Source of the DNA: an uncultured Candidatus Poseidoniales archaeon
Lineage (GTDB): Archaea; Thermoplasmatota; Poseidoniia; Poseidoniales; Poseidoniaceae
Direction of reading: 5' to 3'
NCBI GenBank assembly: GCA_902563095.1
Contig: CACEWA010000005.1
Location: 9,911 to 73,910 of the forward strand
DNA: 64,000 nucleotides
Shown: piece by piece, positions 11,761 to 16,625 of the stretch
How the letters are laid out: each line of letters begins with the position of its first letter
Position numbering within the stretch: the first letter of the stretch is position 1
Notes under the pieces: generated by a model
What the model saw: only the letters and a program-made list of their open reading frames with translations
Databases searched by the model: none
Told to the model about the DNA's origin: nothing
Position numbers and translations under genes: made by a program

Positions 11761-13551
11761 TTAAACTGGAGTCCCAAGGTAAATTTCGTCGATATCTAAC
11801 TGTAGGATATACAAGCCTGTAGAAATACACGAAGCGTAAATTCTGCCTTCGTGGAATTCAACTGCCCACAGGAAAGGGACCCAGCCAAAATCGTAGTATG
11901 CGCTGTCAAGCGGTGTACCGTCGAGATGCCCTGAAGGTAGATAATAGCCAATAGTTGATTCAAAGTGAATGTCGATTCTGTCCGTTGCCTCAGGAGCAAT
12001 TAGCGTTTCAAGATCCACAATCCAAAGGCCCGCATGGTAATGAGAAATGTACAGTCTTACATCCCAGTTTCCGCCATGTGATTGATCGGTTTCCTCAGTA
12101 GTCTCAAAGTATCCTGTATCCAGATTATGCGGACTAAATAATAGCCATTCATCATTATTAGGATCCAGTTCACAACTTGCTCCAAAGCAGTGGTCTTGAG
12201 CGTACGGAATTTCCCAATCTCTAGTCATTGTAATTTCAAACCTGAAATTGCCATTTTCTTCAGAATATTCTGTAGTATCCAATAGGTAAACAATACCGGT
12301 CCCTTGGTACAAGTCAAGGCATTCTACTGCTGCTGTTACGTAATGTCGAGGTTCGTCTCCAAGTCCTAGATGAGATACATCAAGCATCTCAGGAACTGGT
12401 TCGGCATAATGAATGTAAGATACTCGGCCACCGTTTTCGTTGCCAGTAGTACCGCTGTCTGGCTGTCCATCATTATCCAAATCTAAGAAGTCCATCCATG
12501 AGCCGACTTCAGGCGCCCTCCAGCGACATAGCACTGGGTTTCCTTGTCCGGCTTTGCAGGTTGATGCCATCAAAGAATACAATTCTGGAGTATTAACTGG
12601 ATGAGGTACGTCAGTAACATCGCCGATTCTCAATCCTGCTTCCCAATATGAACCATAAACAAAGGTGCGGCCGTATCTTGGGTCTTCAGTATCCTCTCCC
12701 GGCCACTTCTGAACGGTCATGTCATGAATGTAAATCCAGCCGCCTCTGGTTGTTTCCCATGCTACCTCGTACTCACCAACTTTGATGATTGTATGGCCGA
12801 ATCCCGAGCCCGGTGTGCCCGGAGCGACCTGGGCTGCGCTTCCTTTGAGGTTCAAGTGAGCAATGGTTACTCCACCACAAGCTTCACCAATTGCAGAATC
12901 GCATTGTTCGTAATCTGGATTTGCAACGAAAATGTACCACTCTCCATCTATCATGTACGGGTACAGGTTGTGAGGCCCGCTTGGGTGGTCTGAATCATAC
13001 CATGAGTCGACATAAGTCGGGTTTGCCTTATCTGTAACATCAATCAAAGTCACTGATACTTGAATTGGATCGCTCCACTGGCCAATGTTAGGGTCTGCAT
13101 ATCCGGAATCGATGAGTTGGTTTTGTAAAATTACATATTCGTCGCCGTTGTACTCTAGATACTTAACATCCAAAACCTGAGTGTTTGGGTCATGGTAAAC
13201 TCCTACGACTTGGGGGTCTGATGCATTAGTAACATCAACAATGTGCATATCATTCCATCCTGCTTGGTAAGTGTACACTCTGCCGTCTGGAGAACGTGCA
13301 ACCGAAACTTCTGCATTTCCTGGCGATGTTAGAGGATTGAATGCAAGTTGTTCGATATTATCTGTGCCGACGGTATGCTGGCTCGCATTCATGTGATCAT
13401 GGCCTTCGCCTTGGAATAATGGGTCTCCTGCATGAAAGTGAGGTTTTGCCTCATTGGTCTCCACATCTTCTTCGCCAAGGACTAGGACAACTAAAGAAGA
13501 TGCAAACAGAATTATGAAAATTCCCAGCGCTACGCCAATCTTGCTGTCCAT
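11761..13551 (-). CDS. secreted/anchored beta-propeller protein with LVIVD-like repeats (putative)
   Basis: N-terminal hydrophobic segment MDSKIGVALGIFIILFASSLVVLVLG. Repeated motifs include GLWIVDL, GIVYLLDT and GLYILQLD, reminiscent of LVIVD repeats of archaeal/bacterial surface proteins. The track ORF extends to 13617 but then overlaps the divergent neighbour. Confidence 0.5.
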   Translation of the reverse strand: MDSKIGVALGIFIILFASSLVVLVLGEEDVETNEAKPHFHAGDPLFQGEGHDHMNASQHTVGTDNIEQLAFNPLTSPGNAEVSVARSPDGRVYTYQAGWNDMHIVDVTNASDPQVVGVYHDPNTQVLDVKYLEYNGDEYVILQNQLIDSGYADPNIGQWSDPIQVSVTLIDVTDKANPTYVDSWYDSDHPSGPHNLYPYMIDGEWYIFVANPDYEQCDSAIGEACGGVTIAHLNLKGSAAQVAPGTPGSGFGHTIIKVGEYEVAWETTRGGWIYIHDMTVQKWPGEDTEDPRYGRTFVYGSYWEAGLRIGDVTDVPHPVNTPELYSLMASTCKAGQGNPVLCRWRAPEVGSWMDFLDLDNDGQPDSGTTGNENGGRVSYIHYAEPVPEMLDVSHLGLGDEPRHYVTAAVECLDLYQGTGIVYLLDTTEYSEENGNFRFEITMTRDWEIPYAQDHCFGASCELDPNNDEWLLFSPHNLDTGYFETTEETDQSHGGNWDVRLYISHYHAGLWIVDLETLIAPEATDRIDIHFESTIGYYLPSGHLDGTPLDSAYYDFGWVPFLWAVEFHEGRIYASCISTGLYILQLDIDEIYLGTPV

Positions 13552-13609
13552 GTTGCTGCGGCTAACTTCTTCCGTATTGTATTTATTCTTGGCTTGAGTG
13601 GCAAAATCA

Positions 13610-14173
13610 ATGCGCATACTTGCTGCTATCCTTGGTGTTGTGATGCTCGCATCGCCGGTTGTAGGTCATGAATTATTGATTTATACTGTAATTGTAAACT
13701 CGGAAGGCGCGCAGCCAGCGGACATTCCCACCGGTGCACTGAAGGAAGGAGATTCCGCTTGGTTTTGGATGAAAGATACCACTGAAAATGCCACCTTAGT
13801 GATAGAATTAGAGAAAGATGGGGCTAAGGTAAGGTCACCTGTTCTACAATTCGCGTGTGAACTAGATGACAACGGTACGAGAATCGATGAGAACTGTATG
13901 ACTCGATACGATTTTGTCTTCAATCAACATACATCTGCAGGGGAATGGAACTTCACTTTCATGACATACGTCAACGATAGTCTGAACAAAACTAGTACAG
14001 GCTCAGTTTACATCCAAGAAGATGTTCACCTCGAGGAAGATTTGGATGAAATTGCAGAAAGTAAGGAGATTTCTAAAGAAGCGATTGCTGGAGTAATAGC
14101 GGCGGTCTCACTGGTGGCGATAGCGTTTCTAATATCAAAAATAGAATCTGAAACTATTCAAGAAAAAGAATAG
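13610..14173 (+). CDS. small secreted protein with C-terminal membrane anchor (hypothetical)
   Basis: N-terminal signal peptide MRILAAILGVVMLASPVVG. The C-terminal hydrophobic helix AIAGVIAAVSLVAIAFLI is followed by a charged tail. The track start at 13598 is a GTG. Confidence 0.5.
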   Translation: MRILAAILGVVMLASPVVGHELLIYTVIVNSEGAQPADIPTGALKEGDSAWFWMKDTTENATLVIELEKDGAKVRSPVLQFACELDDNGTRIDENCMTRYDFVFNQHTSAGEWNFTFMTYVNDSLNKTSTGSVYIQEDVHLEEDLDEIAESKEISKEAIAGVIAAVSLVAIAFLISKIESETIQEKE

Positions 14174-14178
14174 TTACT

Positions 14179-15633
14179 TCAGACTTTGAGGTTGGCCTGT
14201 CTTGCTAGAAGGACGATTTTCATGCTGTGCTCTAGCATTGCTGCATTGGCCCAGGCATCGTCTAAATCAGCGCCGACACAGTATGCCCCATGGCCCCTAA
14301 TTACCACGCACTTACTTCCGCCTTGCTTCAGAGCTTCTGCTGTTTGGCGCAAGAAATCGTCAGGGTTTTCTTCATCTGGATCTACGATTACTATTTTCCC
14401 GAGCATGCTTTTTCCAATCTCATCAATAGGTGAGCAAAGAATGAGGTCTTTTTCACAACTTACTGCTGTAGTGTATGGCCCCATCATGTGAATACAAGCA
14501 GCAGAGCCGCCGGTTTCGAGGGATGTTGCGGCTAACAGAACCTCAAGAACTCTCCAATCGCTTGGTGCAGTTGGAGGTGCGCCTTGCCCTAGCCTTCCGC
14601 CAACAAGTCCCCTCTCATTTAATCGAGATAGAGTGGTTCCTGCTTTGGTTGAAATCATGACTCCCGGCATCCCTGGGTGTAGTAGAGAAATTGTTCCCAT
14701 GTTTGCTCTGACTAATTGCTCTCTATCCAGTTGCCTTGCCAAACGTGCAATATCTGCAACTAAGTGATCTTGAACTACAATATCTGCTGCAAGAACTGCT
14801 GGAGGCATTGGTTCTGTTTCCAATTCCTCGATAATGTCGGCAGCTCCGGCTAGTGATTTGCGTAGACTATGTACTTCACCAGATAGTTTGAGAACTTCTT
14901 GTTCTGCCGCTTTTGCTCTGTTAGAAACATCAGGACCTGTTGTTTCTGAAACCGGTTCTGAGTCGGTTTCTTCTGCTTCAGATTCTTCTTCAGCAGGGGC
15001 TTCTTCGGCTTCGGCTTCAGCCTCTTCGGTTGATTCTTCAGTAGTTTCCTCTGCGGACTCCTCTTCTGCTTCAGATTCTTCTTCAGCAGGGGCTTCTTCG
15101 GCTTCGGCTTCGGCCTCTTCGGTTGATTCTTCAGTAGTTTCCTCTGCGGACTCCTCTTCTACTGCAGGGTCTTCTTCTGCCGGAGATTCATCCTCAGCAG
15201 TAGGCGGTCCGCTTGGCGGACCGGATGGAGGCCCTGAAGGTGGCCCTTTTGGTGGACCGCCTGGTGGACCTGATGGAGGTCCTGAAGGTGGCCCTTTTGG
15301 TGGACCGCCTGGTGGGCCCGAAGGAGGACCAGAGGGTGGCCCTTTTGGCGGGCCGCTTGGCGGGCCTGAAGGTGAATCGCTGGGTTCATCCTCGGTGGAT
15401 TCTTCCTCATCGGATTCTTGTGATTCTTCTTTAGCAGGAGTTTCTTCTGTTTCTGGTTCTGTTGTTTCCTCTTCAACAGCCGTTTCTTCAACAGGCGGTG
15501 CATCAGGGACATCCATGTCTTCAAGGCCTCCGAACGCGCCCCCAAACATGTCGTCTGCTGCAGCGTTTTCTGCATCGTCTTTAGCCTTCTTTGATGATGT
15601 TTTTCGGCCGGCCACGTTCTCGCCTCGTACCAC
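14179..15633 (-). CDS. class II aldolase/adducin-family domain protein with a long N-terminal acidic, Pro/Gly-repeat low-complexity region
   Basis: The C-terminal roughly 230 aa carry class II aldolase signatures (NMGTISLLHPGMPGVMISTKAGTTLSRLNERGLVGG ... HMMGPYTTAV ... VIRGHGAYCVGADLDDAW). The N-terminal roughly 250 aa are (E/T/S/A)-rich and include 16-aa GPPSGPPKGPPSGPPG-type repeats. Confidence 0.6.
   Translation of the reverse strand: MVRGENVAGRKTSSKKAKDDAENAAADDMFGGAFGGLEDMDVPDAPPVEETAVEEETTEPETEETPAKEESQESDEEESTEDEPSDSPSGPPSGPPKGPPSGPPSGPPGGPPKGPPSGPPSGPPGGPPKGPPSGPPSGPPSGPPTAEDESPAEEDPAVEEESAEETTEESTEEAEAEAEEAPAEEESEAEEESAEETTEESTEEAEAEAEEAPAEEESEAEETDSEPVSETTGPDVSNRAKAAEQEVLKLSGEVHSLRKSLAGAADIIEELETEPMPPAVLAADIVVQDHLVADIARLARQLDREQLVRANMGTISLLHPGMPGVMISTKAGTTLSRLNERGLVGGRLGQGAPPTAPSDWRVLEVLLAATSLETGGSAACIHMMGPYTTAVSCEKDLILCSPIDEIGKSMLGKIVIVDPDEENPDDFLRQTAEALKQGGSKCVVIRGHGAYCVGADLDDAWANAAMLEHSMKIVLLARQANLKV
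14976..15161. repeat. tandem direct repeat, 2 x 93 bp (one mismatch), encoding a duplicated 31-aa acidic block
   Basis: Read directly: cttcagattcttcttcagcaggggcttcttcggcttcggcttcagcctcttcggttgattcttcagtagtttcctctgcggactcctcttctg occurs twice in tandem. It lies inside CDS 14179..15633. Confidence 0.8.
15195..15370. repeat. about 3.5 tandem copies of a 48-bp unit encoding a 16-aa Pro/Gly repeat (GPPSGPPKGPPSGPPG)
   Basis: The periodic unit gcctggtggacctgatggaggtcctgaaggtggcccttttggtggacc is visible in the sequence. It lies inside CDS 14179..15633. Confidence 0.6.
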
Positions 15634-15678
15634 CCACAGAGCGCGGCTTAAATAGCCGTTGTCACTCGGCGACTTGCT

Positions 15679-15751
15679 GCCCGCGTGGTGTAGTGGTCTA
15701 TCATGAAGCGTTGTCGATGCTTCGACCCGGGTTCAAATCCCGGCGCGGGCG
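15679..15751 (+). tRNA. tRNA-Asp (anticodon GTC)
   Basis: Acceptor GCCCGCG/CGCGGGC. Anticodon loop TTGTCGA, giving GTC. T-arm CCCGG-GTTCAAAT-CCGGG. Discriminator G, then genomic CC. Confidence 0.75.
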
Positions 15752-15823
15752 CCTAACCGGCGCAATCAATCGATTTCGAGATGTTTTTTGTTATTCCAAT
15801 TCTAATTTTTGAAATAAAAAAAA

Positions 15824-15855
15824 GCCCCCACCGGGAGCAAACTCCCGGTGAGGGC
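15824..15855 (-). terminator. GC-rich hairpin followed (on the minus strand) by a U-run; putative terminator of gene 15897..16541
   Basis: Stem CCCACCGGGAG / CTCCCGGTGAGGG with loop CAAA. An A9 run at 15815-15823 on the plus strand gives a T-run on the minus strand downstream of the hairpin. Confidence 0.4.
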
Positions 15856-15896
15856 GAATTCCTGTTAAGGTGTATCAATCAAATTTACTGATTGTT

Positions 15897-16541
15897 TCAC
15901 TCGTCAGCTTCAATGAACTGGCCGATTAGTGCAGAACCAAGTCCCATGGACATTGCTGCGCCTGCCATCCAGCCGCTCATTCCTAGGCTCATGTCGCCAC
16001 CGTCTGGTAGCATGAAGTACCATCCTAGCATACCAACTAGCATCAAAGCGCCTGCTGCCCATGTCGCGAGTTGCGTTACATTTTCTGGAACAGCGTCCAT
16101 TGCGTCAACGCCAGCCATTGGTAGAACCATTGTCAGAGTAATTAGTAGTGCACAGACAATTCCTGCCCACATGCCAATTGTTCCGATCATTCCGCCAGTA
16201 GCCATATCACATGCTTCTTCGTCATCAGTATCATCGCATACATCGCTAAATGCCATTGTCATCGTTATGACAGTGCCATCACATTCTGATTCTGCGCCAC
16301 CAGGTGCCATATTATCAGCGAAATCTTCGCAGTCTGATTCTGAGCTTGCGCCCATCTCGGCTAAATCCATTTCCGACCATGAAGCAGTCAGACTTGTGCC
16401 TGCGTCCATTCCATCATCCATTTCCTCCTCAGGGACTAGCCAGGTGTTACCCATAGCGCCCATGATTCCGAGTACTAGACATAGGGCCGACATAGCCGCC
16501 ATGACCATTCCTTTCATTTTTGCATCCATCATTGTTTTCAC
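15897..16541 (-). CDS. Met-rich, acidic membrane/secreted protein (hypothetical)
   Basis: N-terminal signal/TM (MKGMVMAAMSALCLVLGIMGAMG). Central D/E/C-rich region. C-terminal hydrophobic helices. About 30 Met in 214 aa. Confidence 0.5.
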   Translation of the reverse strand: MKTMMDAKMKGMVMAAMSALCLVLGIMGAMGNTWLVPEEEMDDGMDAGTSLTASWSEMDLAEMGASSESDCEDFADNMAPGGAESECDGTVITMTMAFSDVCDDTDDEEACDMATGGMIGTIGMWAGIVCALLITLTMVLPMAGVDAMDAVPENVTQLATWAAGALMLVGMLGWYFMLPDGGDMSLGMSGWMAGAAMSMGLGSALIGQFIEADE

Positions 16542-16625
16542 ATTCCCGAGGCCTTAACCTCAGAGGGTATCCGAGCCCATGAGTATATGAGTGTTGTACC
16601 GGCGAATTAGTTAAAAAACGGGGTT

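What the first reader, a model, noticed from the sequence alone, without database searches (positions are those of the whole stretch)
14179..15633. Class II aldolase/adducin domain fused to a 250-aa acidic, Pro/Gly-repeat disordered region built from tandem DNA repeats
The C-terminal half has clear class II aldolase signatures.

The N-terminal half is extreme low complexity:
- a duplicated 31-aa EEAPAEEESEAEEESAEETTEESTEEAEAEA block encoded by a 2 x 93-bp perfect tandem repeat (14976..15161, one mismatch);
- about 3.5 copies of a 16-aa GPPSGPPKGPPSGPPG unit encoded by 48-bp repeats (15195..15370).

Near-perfect DNA repeats imply a recent expansion and possible length polymorphism. This fusion of an aldolase-fold domain to such a tail is, as far as I know, unusual in prokaryotes. 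Adducin in eukaryotes pairs this fold with a disordered tail but in the opposite order.

The repeats also produce spurious ORFs on the opposite strand.
Basis: seen in the sequence. Interest (0 to 1): 0.55.

Follow-up and report, generated by a model that had tools for sequence, protein, structure and literature searches.

The report
Archaeal pseudo-aldolase with long disordered arm
This gene encodes a protein found throughout the abundant marine archaea Poseidoniales, in which an aldolase-like domain that has lost most of its metal-binding residues sits behind a coiled coil, a long fast-evolving acidic and proline-rich disordered arm, and a conserved N-terminal peptide; the layout resembles eukaryotic adducin in reverse, and its function is untested.

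Summary
One minus-strand gene encodes a C-terminal class II aldolase fold behind about 230 disordered residues built partly from two in-frame tandem DNA arrays. These are the only strong arrays in the 64-kb window. The true start is probably GTG 15615 (478 aa), not 15633.

It is not an accidental fusion. 144 species-level Poseidoniales genomes carry a relative, and all 51 complete genes share the architecture:
- a conserved 30-residue N-terminal motif (MAGxKTS…DMFGGAFG);
- an acidic segment, a (GPPx)n block, and a second acidic segment;
- a near-invariant heptad helix and a PMPP hinge;
- a 208-209-residue aldolase-like domain.

The spacer ranges from 102 to 314 aa. It changes by repeat gain and loss even between variants with identical C-terminal domains.

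The canonical His triad is complete in only 2 of 49 species, against 61 of 70 out-group aldolases. The window protein has H-M-H.

My best reading, which is inferred, is a non-canonical and probably non-catalytic oligomeric head that displays a docking peptide on a long polyanionic/polyproline arm. A retained but altered enzymatic role is not excluded.

I found no description of this architecture in the literature I searched. I rate it a new variant of a known superfamily, of moderate interest.

The parts
14179..15615 (-). Whole gene, 478 codons plus a stop at 14179-14181. The revised start is GTG 15615; the mechanical ORF start at 15633 is probably upstream of the real start.
   Evidence: ORF list. 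Homologues start at the equivalent codon, 35 ATG and 14 GTG. Coordinates verified by translation.
15647..15654 (-). TATA-like box TATTTAAG, about 32-39 nt upstream of GTG 15615. This implies a very short leader and places GTG 15633 at or upstream of the likely transcription start (inference).
   Evidence: Sequence read directly. Not tested experimentally.
15523..15615 (-). Conserved N-terminal motif, residues 1-31: (M)AGRKTSSKKAKDDAENAAADDMFGGAFGGL. It has a basic start with invariant Thr6-Ser7, a charged stretch, then [ML][FL]xxAFG with invariant Phe28.
   Evidence: Alignment of 14 diverse members. Present in 51 of 51 complete genes. A profile search found only N-terminal fragments of this same gene.
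15376..15522 (-). Acidic disordered segment 1, residues 32-80. Net charge about -23 for residues 32-89.
   Evidence: Composition. pLDDT below 50.
15199..15375 (-). Proline block (GPPx)n, residues 81-139, with period-4 GPPS/GPPK/GPPG and near-neutral charge. It is encoded partly by 48-bp units (TRF 15209-15369, 3.4 copies, 86% matches).
   Evidence: TRF. The units differ by 20 synonymous and 2 non-synonymous bases, so the peptide is under purifying selection. A P-rich block was detected in the first half of the spacer in nearly all of the 49 species; one scored zero with my pattern.
14929..15198 (-). Acidic disordered segment 2, residues 140-229, net charge about -45. It contains the 93-bp x 2.2 tandem duplication (14969-15177) that encodes the duplicated 31-aa EESAEETTEESTEEAEAEAEEAPAEEESEAE block.
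   Evidence: TRF. One synonymous difference between the copies. A Tara contig of a 98.65%-identical strain starts inside this repeat.
14818..14925 (-). Neck helix, residues 231-266. Hydrophobic a/d heptad positions are 241, 244, 248, 251, 255, 258, 262 and 265. Several residues are invariant: E240, L244, E247, L251, R252, S254, G257, I262, E263, E266.
   Evidence: AlphaFold2 helix 231-266 and 2-36 of the trimmed model. Column statistics in 49 species.
14800..14814 (-). Hinge E-P-M-P-P, residues 268-272. P269-M270-P271-P272 is invariant in 49 species.
14182..14769 (-). Class II aldolase-like domain, residues 283-478. From the MPP hinge to the stop is 208-209 residues in 47 of the 49 species; the two outliers arise from an earlier MPP match. 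It includes a family-specific near-invariant loop, S-C-E-K-D-L...P-I-D-x-x-G-K (residues 386-402), which is low-confidence in the monomer model.
   Evidence: Pfam. Profile against PDB. AlphaFold2 and Foldseek give TM 0.76-0.79 and rmsd 3.0-3.3 A to Thermus FucA 2flf/2fk5. Length constancy.
14482..14490 (-). Degenerate H-x-H zinc motif, His376-Met377-Met378. The FucA His94 equivalent is Met here.
   Evidence: Alignments to 2fk5 and 6vop. Column counts. Out-group control.
14290..14292 (-). His442, the FucA His155 equivalent. It is present in this protein, but the column is the 8th most variable of 196 domain columns in the family (M, K, H, N, R).
14557..14559 (-). Asp353, the equivalent of the FucA Glu73 catalytic carboxylate. 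It is retained as Asp or Glu in 49 of 49 species.
14834..15655 (+). Shadow ORF (273 aa, Ser/Gly/Ala-rich) created by the repeats on the opposite strand. Not a gene.
   Evidence: ORF list. The conserved motif, neck and domain are all in the minus-strand frame across species. The synonymous-substitution pattern fits the minus frame.

Best explanation
This is the Poseidoniales-wide member of a lineage-specific branch of the class II aldolase/adducin superfamily. It has become a modular, probably non-catalytic scaffold.

**Shown**
- The C-terminal 196 residues adopt the FucA-type aldolase fold.
- The canonical metal and phosphate ligands evolve freely across the family. The window protein has His-Met-His instead of His-His-His, and Thr instead of the phosphate-binding Asn.
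- Directly upstream lie a near-invariant heptad-pattern helix and a PMPP hinge.
- Upstream of those is a 100-315-residue spacer with strongly negative charge, predicted to be disordered, with an embedded (GPPx)n block whose peptide sequence is under purifying selection.
- At the extreme N-terminus is a 30-residue motif conserved across the order.

**Inferred**
- The aldolase-like head and neck oligomerise. Characterised class II aldolase-fold proteins, including adducin heads, are tetramers.
- The oligomer therefore displays several copies of the N-terminal peptide on long, self-repelling polyanionic/polyproline-II arms.
- The peptide acts as a short linear docking motif for a still unknown, conserved partner.
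- The arm acts as an entropic spacer. Its exact sequence and length are weakly constrained, so replication slippage or unequal recombination between in-frame DNA repeats keeps changing its length. The 2 x 93-bp duplication in this window is one such recent event.
For: **Fold**
- Pfam match E=3.8e-18.
- The trimmed AlphaFold2 model (pTM 0.73) superposes on Thermus FucA with TM 0.76-0.79 and rmsd 3.0-3.3 A.

**Loss of canonical site**
- Ligand columns were mapped by profile alignment to 2fk5 and 6vop.
- The full His triad occurs in 2 of 49 species and 11 of 121 metagenome proteins, against 61 of 70 nearest single-domain out-group aldolases.
- The His155-equivalent column ranks 8th most variable and the Ser72-equivalent column 2nd of 196. 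The median column is almost invariant, with entropy 0.36 bits.
- The Asn29 equivalent is Asn in 2 of 121 family proteins, against 62 of 70 out-group proteins.
- All NCBIfam equivalog scores are far below their cut-offs, the best being 75 against 203.

**Architecture is universal and is one gene**
- 144 species genomes carry a relative, and 51 of 51 complete genes show the architecture.
- Distant members at 30-47% identity keep the P-rich block, the coiled coil and, in most, an [ML]FG-type motif.

**Neck**
- Helix 231-266, with the a/d hydrophobic pattern conserved in 49 of 49 species.

**Spacer**
- pLDDT below 50.
- All 49 spacers fall on the disordered side of the charge-hydropathy line. Length is 102-314 aa, while the C-terminal part is fixed at 208-209 aa.
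- The (GPPx) units differ by 20 synonymous and 2 non-synonymous bases.
- Copy-number variants exist with identical or near-identical C-terminal domains.

**Precedent**
- Adducin's aldolase domain is described as a tetrameric protein-interaction module lacking the catalytic His triad and embedded in a larger modular protein (PMC12599920).
Against: - No oligomer could be modelled or measured here.
- No partner was identified.
- The N-terminal motif was not predicted to fold or dock (pLDDT about 35).
- The gene has no operon partner that would hint at function.
- The domain is very strongly conserved and has many invariant polar residues, including C387-E388-K389-D390, D398, K402, D412, D414, R440, E462 and H463. 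That would also fit a ligand-binding or catalytic site of a new kind.
- The first His and the carboxylate are retained almost universally, and a minority of members keep the full triad.
- Copy-number differences among short-read assemblies could be partly assembly artefacts.
Confidence: 0.45

Rival explanations
1. It is still an enzyme. On this reading it is a class II aldolase-fold catalyst with a remodelled active site, for example a two-His/carboxylate metal site or a metal-independent mechanism using the family-specific invariant Cys/Glu/Lys/Asp loop. The disordered arm and N-terminal peptide only localise, solubilise or regulate it.
For: - The domain is under strong purifying selection, with dozens of invariant polar residues.
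- His376 occurs in 48 of 49 species and Asp/Glu353 in 49 of 49.
- The window protein keeps two of the three His residues.
- The nearest structural neighbours are true enzymes.
- The near-invariant loop 386-402 lies in the segment that aligns with the FucA active-site/interface region containing Tyr113. I placed that region from memory and did not check it in the profile alignments.
Against: - The two other metal ligands and the phosphate-binding positions are among the most variable columns of the domain. The third ligand position is occupied by M, K, N or R in most species.
- Out-group enzymes keep these residues in 87% or more of cases.
- No NCBIfam equivalog threshold is approached.
- There are no metabolic neighbours.
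Confidence: 0.3
2. The acidic arm itself is the functional part. Possibilities are a polyanionic nucleic-acid mimic or chaperone for basic proteins such as histones or ribosomal proteins, a cation buffer, or a driver of a condensate. The aldolase-like head would only supply multivalency, and the N-terminal basic patch would fold back on the acidic tracts as a regulator, as in nucleoplasmin-like proteins.
For: - Net charge is -66 over 198 residues.
- Acidity is conserved in all 49 species, with D+E at 16-35% and K+R at 0-7%.
- The first 12 residues carry a charge of +5.
- The multivalent layout is inferred.
Against: - The spacer length and acidic sequence are almost unconstrained, ranging from 102 to 314 aa.
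- Some Thalassarchaeaceae members have only 50-70 residues with few acidic residues before the coiled coil.
- The most conserved elements are the N-terminal motif, the proline block and the neck, not the acidic tracts.
Confidence: 0.12
3. It is an artefact: a misassembled or chimeric contig, a spurious ORF running through a repeat, or two separate genes joined by error.
For: - Repeats of this kind do break and distort assemblies. 21 of 75 species loci end inside or near the repeat region.
- Long-read assemblies show frameshift-split copies.
- A 98.65%-identical Tara contig starts inside the 93-bp repeat.
- The exact copy number in this window cannot be verified without reads.
Against: - The same single-frame architecture occurs in 51 independent species-level assemblies and in many metagenome contigs.
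- The N-terminal motif, neck and domain are conserved in the same frame.
- The synonymous-substitution pattern supports this frame.
Confidence: 0.02

Closest known systems
Short FucA-type class II aldolases (for example Thermus thermophilus L-fuculose-1-phosphate aldolase, PDB 2fk5/2flf) and the archaeal 'aldolase' family NF006413/PRK08660
   Same: - Same fold: TM 0.76-0.79, rmsd about 3 A, 25% identity.
- Full-length Pfam PF00596 match.
- The first zinc His and the catalytic carboxylate position are retained.
- The nearest sequence relatives outside the family are 183-195-aa aldolases of methanogens.
   Different: - Two of the three His ligands and the phosphate-binding Asn/Ser are not conserved.
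- The score is far below the equivalog cut-off, 75 against 203 bits.
- It carries about 280 extra N-terminal residues (motif, disordered arm, coiled coil) that single-domain enzymes lack.
- It has a family-specific invariant loop, SCEKDL..PID..GK.
Adducin (eukaryotic head-neck-tail membrane-skeleton protein)
   Same: - A class II aldolase-fold domain with a degenerate His triad, used as part of a larger modular protein.
- A helical 'neck' next to the head.
- A long disordered region ending in a short basic, hydrophobic terminal peptide.
- Adducin heads are tetrameric protein-interaction modules (PMC12599920).
   Different: - The order is reversed: peptide, arm, neck, head.
- There is no MARCKS-related domain.
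- The domain is structurally closer to bacterial enzymes than to adducin heads (8iai_4 at rank 23, TM 0.56 against 0.79), so this is parallel evolution rather than orthology.
- It is archaeal. According to PMC12599920, adducin appears only in early animals.
PopZ-type bacterial hub proteins (analogy recalled from my own knowledge; not tested)
   Same: The design logic is the same: a short conserved N-terminal interaction element, a Pro/Glu-rich acidic disordered linker of variable length, and a C-terminal oligomerisation module.
   Different: - No sequence or fold relationship.
- The oligomerisation module here is an aldolase-like domain plus a coiled coil.
- No evidence for polar localisation or condensates.
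C-terminal peptide of the archaeal ribosomal stalk protein aP1
   Same: An acidic flexible region followed by a Gly-containing hydrophobic peptide ending in F-G. aP1 has L100...L103-S-A-L106-F107-G108 (PMC4267659). Here the motif is [ML]23-[FL]24-x-x-A27-F28-G29. The stalk also displays multiple copies of its peptide on one assembly.
   Different: - The motif here is N-terminal and internal, whereas the free C-terminal carboxylate of aP1 Gly108 makes a salt bridge to aEF1A.
- The strictly conserved L-F is A-F here.
- The motif search found no stalk proteins.
- This is only a resemblance.

Membership tests
Class II aldolase/adducin superfamily (Pfam PF00596) | Profile match above the curated threshold over the whole domain | tested here: met
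   66.4 bits against a 22.2-bit cut-off, E=3.8e-18, profile positions 2-182 of 183, residues 294-474 of the 484-aa ORF.
Class II aldolase/adducin superfamily (Pfam PF00596) | Alpha/beta fold superposable on solved members | tested here: met
   AlphaFold2 model with pTM 0.73. Foldseek gives E=1e-11, TM 0.76-0.79 and rmsd 3.0-3.3 A to 2flf/2fk5.
Catalytic metal-dependent class II aldolase/epimerase (FucA/AraD type) | Three-histidine metal site (FucA His92, His94, His155) | tested here: not met
   The window protein has His376-Met378-His442. The full triad occurs in 2 of 49 species, against 61 of 70 out-group aldolases.
Catalytic metal-dependent class II aldolase/epimerase (FucA/AraD type) | Catalytic carboxylate (FucA Glu73) | tested here: met
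   Asp353. Asp or Glu in 49 of 49 species.
Catalytic metal-dependent class II aldolase/epimerase (FucA/AraD type) | Phosphate-binding Asn29 and Ser71/Ser72 equivalents | tested here: not met
   The Asn29 equivalent is Thr308; Asn occurs in 2 of 121 family proteins against 62 of 70 out-group proteins. The Ser72-equivalent column is the 2nd most variable of 196. The residue roles in FucA come from my own knowledge of the E. coli enzyme.
Catalytic metal-dependent class II aldolase/epimerase (FucA/AraD type) | Score above an NCBIfam equivalog cut-off (FucA, AraD, MtnB, archaeal aldolase) | tested here: not met
   The best score is NF006413 at 75.1 bits against a cut-off of 203. All others are lower.
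Catalytic metal-dependent class II aldolase/epimerase (FucA/AraD type) | Homotetramer, with measured metal binding and turnover | not testable with these tools
   Only monomer prediction was available, and there is no biochemistry.
Adducin | Aldolase-fold head with a degenerate catalytic triad inside a larger modular protein | tested here: met
   Fold, incomplete triad and modular architecture. The adducin description is from PMC12599920.
Adducin | Head-neck-tail order with a C-terminal MARCKS-related basic domain | tested here: not met
   The order is reversed. No Pfam family matches residues 1-279. The terminal peptide is N-terminal and only weakly basic.
Adducin | Head domain more similar to adducin heads than to enzymes (orthology) | tested here: not met
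   Adducin chain 8iai_4 is at rank 23 with TM 0.56 and rmsd 4.6 A. Thermus FucA gives TM 0.79 and rmsd 3.0 A.
Ribosomal P-stalk C-terminal factor-binding peptide | Strictly conserved L-F-G at the extreme C-terminus with a free carboxylate, after an acidic hinge | tested here: not met
   The motif is N-terminal and reads A-F-G, followed by further residues. The motif profile retrieved no stalk proteins.

The most novel reading that the evidence does not exclude
Poseidoniales independently evolved an adducin-like hub. In this reading a tetrameric pseudo-aldolase head with a coiled-coil neck projects four long polyanionic/polyproline arms. Their conserved N-terminal [KR][KR]TS...[ML][FL]xxAFG peptides recruit and concentrate a core cellular partner. 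Candidates are translation GTPases, in the manner of the ribosomal P-stalk factor pool, or a division or cytoskeletal protein. This would be the first prokaryotic case of an aldolase fold recruited as a protein-interaction scaffold.
Probability: 0.25. Interest if true: 0.75.

Novelty: new variant of a known kind. Interest (0 to 1): 0.5.

Why it matters
- **Ecological weight.** Poseidoniales (Marine Group II) are among the most abundant archaea in the surface ocean and remain uncultured. A gene found in 144 species-level genomes, at a conserved chromosomal position and with no assigned function, is a gap in understanding their cell biology.
- **Evolutionary parallel.** If the head is non-catalytic, this is a prokaryotic parallel to the step that produced adducin in animals, where an enzyme fold was recruited as an oligomeric interaction module.
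- **A rare archaeal disordered protein.** It is a rare example of a long, conserved, intrinsically disordered region with a terminal linear motif in archaea.
- **Practical consequences.** The repeat region breaks short-read assemblies and creates truncated or frameshifted gene calls in public data. Its copy-number variation could serve as a strain marker.

Tried and rejected
1. **Other proteins carrying the N-terminal motif.** A profile of 14 motifs searched against 5.8 billion proteins returned only 35 short fragments of this same gene. No other family appeared.
2. **Operon or neighbourhood clues.** The immediate neighbours differ between lineages (peptidase M24, acyltransferase, a membrane protein, tRNA-Asp). 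Only broad synteny is conserved, running from RFC and GATase on one side to TYW2, a TP_methylase-family protein and a Cys/Met PLP enzyme on the other.
3. **Same-strain contigs to count repeat copies.** The only near-identical contig (98.65% nucleotide identity) begins inside the 93-bp repeat.
4. **Ribosomal-stalk mimicry.**
   - No stalk gene was found in the window or in the fetched loci, so no direct comparison was possible.
   - The published aP1-aEF1A contacts include the free C-terminal carboxylate and an L-F pair, which this motif lacks.
   - I kept it only as a low-probability idea.
5. **Defence-system and domain searches.** There were no PADLOC hits and no Pfam hit in residues 1-279.
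6. **Docking of the N-terminal motif onto the head.** The full-length AlphaFold2 model gave no docking; pLDDT for the motif was about 35. Its Foldseek superposition was poor (rmsd about 10 A). It became clean only with the trimmed model.
7. **Literature searches.** Searches for Poseidoniales with adducin, fuculose or pseudoenzyme found nothing relevant.
8. **Signal peptide or collagen.** I rejected a signal-peptide reading because the N-terminus is too polar. I rejected collagen because the repeat period is 4, not Gly-X-Y. Both judgements come from the sequence alone.
Full report
**1. Observation**

The window has an ORF at 14179..15633 on the minus strand.
- Its C-terminal part matches Pfam PF00596 (class II aldolase/adducin). 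The match is E=3.8e-18, 66.4 bits against a 22.2-bit cut-off, covering profile positions 2-182 of 183.
- Tandem Repeats Finder reports a 93-bp unit x 2.2 copies (14969-15177, 95% matches) and a 48-bp unit x 3.4 copies (15209-15369, 86% matches).
- The two full 93-bp copies differ at a single synonymous base.
- These are the only arrays scoring 80 or more in the whole 64-kb window.

One correction concerns the start codon.
- Homologues begin at the codon equivalent to the in-frame GTG at 15615 (MAGPKTS...), with 35 ATG and 14 GTG in 49 species.
- A TATA-like TATTTAAG sits at 15647-15654.
- The protein is therefore most likely 478 aa. All residue numbers below use that numbering.

**2. Organism and distribution**

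Named homologues come from Candidatus Poseidoniales, Poseidoniaceae or Thalassarchaeaceae, that is Marine Group II archaea.
- A scan of one genome per GTDB species found 144 genomes with a relative. The best 80 all carry Poseidoniales-type names, including the original MG-II assembly CM001443.1.
- In a library of 1.84 billion representative proteins, only 19 clusters score E<=1e-30. After a few more divergent family members, the hits drop to ordinary class II aldolases of about 190 aa at about E=1e-8.
- The nearest of those ordinary aldolases are 'aldolase' proteins of methanogens.
- The gene lies in a broadly conserved chromosomal region. RFC small subunit and a GATase lie on one side; TYW2, a TP_methylase-family protein and a Cys/Met PLP enzyme lie on the other.
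- The immediate neighbours vary, and nothing suggests an operon.

**3. Anatomy**

All complete family members share one architecture.

| Element | Residues (478-aa numbering) | Key features |
|---|---|---|
| N-terminal motif | 1-31 | M-A-G-[KRP]-[KR]-T-S-x-[EK]-x-[AS]-[RK]-[ED]-E..., then [DN]-[ML]-[FL]-x-x-A-F-G. Thr6, Ser7 and Phe28 invariant. The Phe of the first F/L-G pair sits at residue 24 (0-based index 23) in 25 of the 27 motif-bearing metagenome proteins. |
| Acidic segment 1 | 32-80 | Strongly acidic |
| (GPPx)n block | 81-139 | Near-neutral charge |
| Acidic segment 2 | 140-229 | Contains the 93-bp duplication |
| Neck helix | 231-266 | Helix in both AlphaFold2 models. Hydrophobic residues at 241, 244, 248, 251, 255, 258, 262 and 265 (3-4-3-4 spacing) in 49 of 49 species. 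Several invariant polar or small residues. |
| Hinge | 268-272 | P269-M-P-P272 invariant |
| Aldolase-like domain | 283-478 | FucA-type fold |

- Of 75 species loci with the domain anchor, 51 have complete genes, and all 51 start with the motif.
- A further 21 are cut by a contig end, often inside the GPPS repeat.
- The remaining 3 have N-runs or no detectable motif.

**4. The spacer evolves by repeat turnover while the rest is fixed**

- From the MPP hinge to the stop is 208-209 residues in 47 of the 49 species. The two apparent outliers are caused by an earlier MPP match.
- The spacer ranges from 102 to 314 residues.
- 39 of 49 species have in-frame tandem DNA arrays with 85% or better matches in the spacer. 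All periods are multiples of 3.
- In one lineage, 14 protein variants whose C-terminal 250 residues are identical or differ at one position vary only in repeat copy number. They have 2-3 copies of a 20-aa proline unit and 2-5 copies of an acidic unit, for lengths of 394-437 aa.
- Proteins whose C-terminal domain is 95% identical to the window's have acidic segments that visibly differ in sequence from the window's.
- Every spacer falls on the disordered side of the charge-hydropathy boundary. Composition is P 14-31%, D+E 16-35% and K+R 0-7%.
- The window spacer has a net charge of -66 and pLDDT below 50.
- The (GPPx) block is not junk. Its three 48-bp units differ by 20 synonymous and only 2 non-synonymous bases, so the peptide is maintained by selection. 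The 93-bp duplication, in contrast, is very recent.
- One caveat applies. Copy numbers from short-read assemblies can be wrong, and the copy number in this window cannot be checked. The only near-identical contig (98.65% nucleotide identity, colinear over 3,330 bp) starts inside the 93-bp repeat.

**5. The aldolase-like domain**

- The trimmed AlphaFold2 model (pTM 0.73) superposes on Thermus FucA (2flf/2fk5) with TM 0.76-0.79, rmsd 3.0-3.3 A and 25% identity.
- Adducin heads appear only at rank 23 (TM 0.56).
- Profile alignment to solved enzymes fixes the equivalences below.

| FucA residue | Window residue | State across the family |
|---|---|---|
| Glu73 (carboxylate) | Asp353 | Asp or Glu in 49 of 49 species |
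| His92 | His376 | His in 48 of 49 species |
| His94 | Met378 | His in 34 of 49 species; otherwise M, Y or F |
| His155 | His442 | His in 10 of 49 species; otherwise M, K, N or R. 8th most variable of 196 columns |
| Ser72 | Ser352 | 2nd most variable column |
| Asn29 | Thr308 | Thr, Ala or Ser in almost all members |

- Only 2 of 49 species keep all three His residues.
- As a control, 61 of the 70 nearest single-domain out-group aldolases keep His-His-His, and 62 of 70 keep the Asn.
- NCBIfam equivalog scores are far below their cut-offs.
- The rest of the domain is very conserved, with a median column entropy of 0.36 bits. This includes a family-specific loop, S-C-E-K-D-L..P-I-D..G-K. That loop is low-confidence in the monomer model.
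- The canonical metal and phosphate site is therefore dispensable for whatever the family does. A different site is not excluded.

**6. Mechanism**

What is shown: the fold, the decay of the canonical site, the conserved neck, the disordered variable arm with a constrained proline block, and the conserved terminal motif.

What is inferred:
- The head and neck oligomerise. Characterised proteins of this fold are tetramers, including adducin heads, which act as protein-interaction modules without the His triad (PMC12599920).
- The arm is a self-repelling, partly polyproline-II spacer.
- The N-terminal peptide is a docking motif for an unknown conserved partner.

I give this reading 0.45. The rivals are:
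- a remodelled enzyme (0.30);
- a function residing in the polyanionic arm itself (0.12);
- an artefact (0.02).

**7. Comparison and novelty**

- It is a member of the PF00596 superfamily.
- It fails the tests for a canonical FucA/AraD-type enzyme.
- It is not an adducin orthologue, because the order is reversed and the domain is closer to enzymes than to adducin heads.
- It does resemble adducin and PopZ-type hubs in design.
- The resemblance of the motif to the ribosomal stalk aP1 tail (L103-S-A-L-F-G108) is partial. The stalk peptide needs a free C-terminus and has an L-F pair, both of which argue against mimicry. The motif search also found no stalk proteins.
- Public records call homologues 'hypothetical protein', 'class II aldolase/adducin family protein' or 'ribulose-5-phosphate 4-epimerase/fuculose-1-phosphate aldolase'.
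- I found no paper on it.

**Verdict**

This is a real, order-wide and uncharacterised architecture: a new variant of a known superfamily. Interest is moderate (0.5).

Noticed in passing
window 15897-16541 (-): The upstream neighbour is a 214-aa predicted membrane protein. It is unusually rich in Met (13.5%), Ala and Gly, and has no Pfam match. A same-size shadow ORF lies on the + strand (15892-16557).
   Followed up: partly
window 15824-15855 (-): A strong hairpin (14-bp stem, 11 G-C pairs) followed by T8 lies just downstream of the Met-rich gene and before the tRNA. It looks like a bacterial-type intrinsic terminator in an archaeal genome.
   Followed up: no
window 15679-15753 (+): tRNA-Asp(GTC) is divergently oriented, 64 nt from the revised start codon of the aldolase-like gene. 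The intergenic region must hold both promoters.
   Followed up: partly
window 11761-13617 (-) and 13598-14173 (+): Two neighbouring ORFs (618 aa and 191 aa) have hydrophobic anchor segments and no Pfam match. Their mechanical starts overlap by 20 nt on opposite strands, so at least one start is probably mis-set.
   Followed up: no
P0282, P0304; L053: Public contigs carrying this gene end in, or contain, peptides that look like translated Nextera adapter sequence (VSYTHLTLPT and DVYKRQ). This points to adapter contamination at contig ends. I recognised the adapter origin from memory.
   Followed up: no
L004 7518-9064; L005 7376-8945: In polished long-read assemblies the gene is split into two overlapping or adjacent ORF calls, probably by frameshift errors in the repeat region. 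Many database entries are also internal-start or frameshifted translations of the proline block, for example P0074, P0108 and P0135.
   Followed up: partly
P0308: A member of a Poseidoniales protein cluster is deposited under 'Planctomycetaceae bacterium' (MBD13675.1). This is likely binning contamination of that MAG.
   Followed up: no
P0147: A divergent family member (30% identity, Poseidoniales) carries a C-terminal (GPGGP)n tail after the aldolase-like domain. This is a different placement of a Pro/Gly repeat.
   Followed up: no
P0131: A 646-aa relative on a 3.0-Mb contig has a 400-residue Asp/Ala/Gly-rich N-terminal region with long near-perfect repeats. It keeps the full His triad. Its taxon is unknown.
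   Followed up: no
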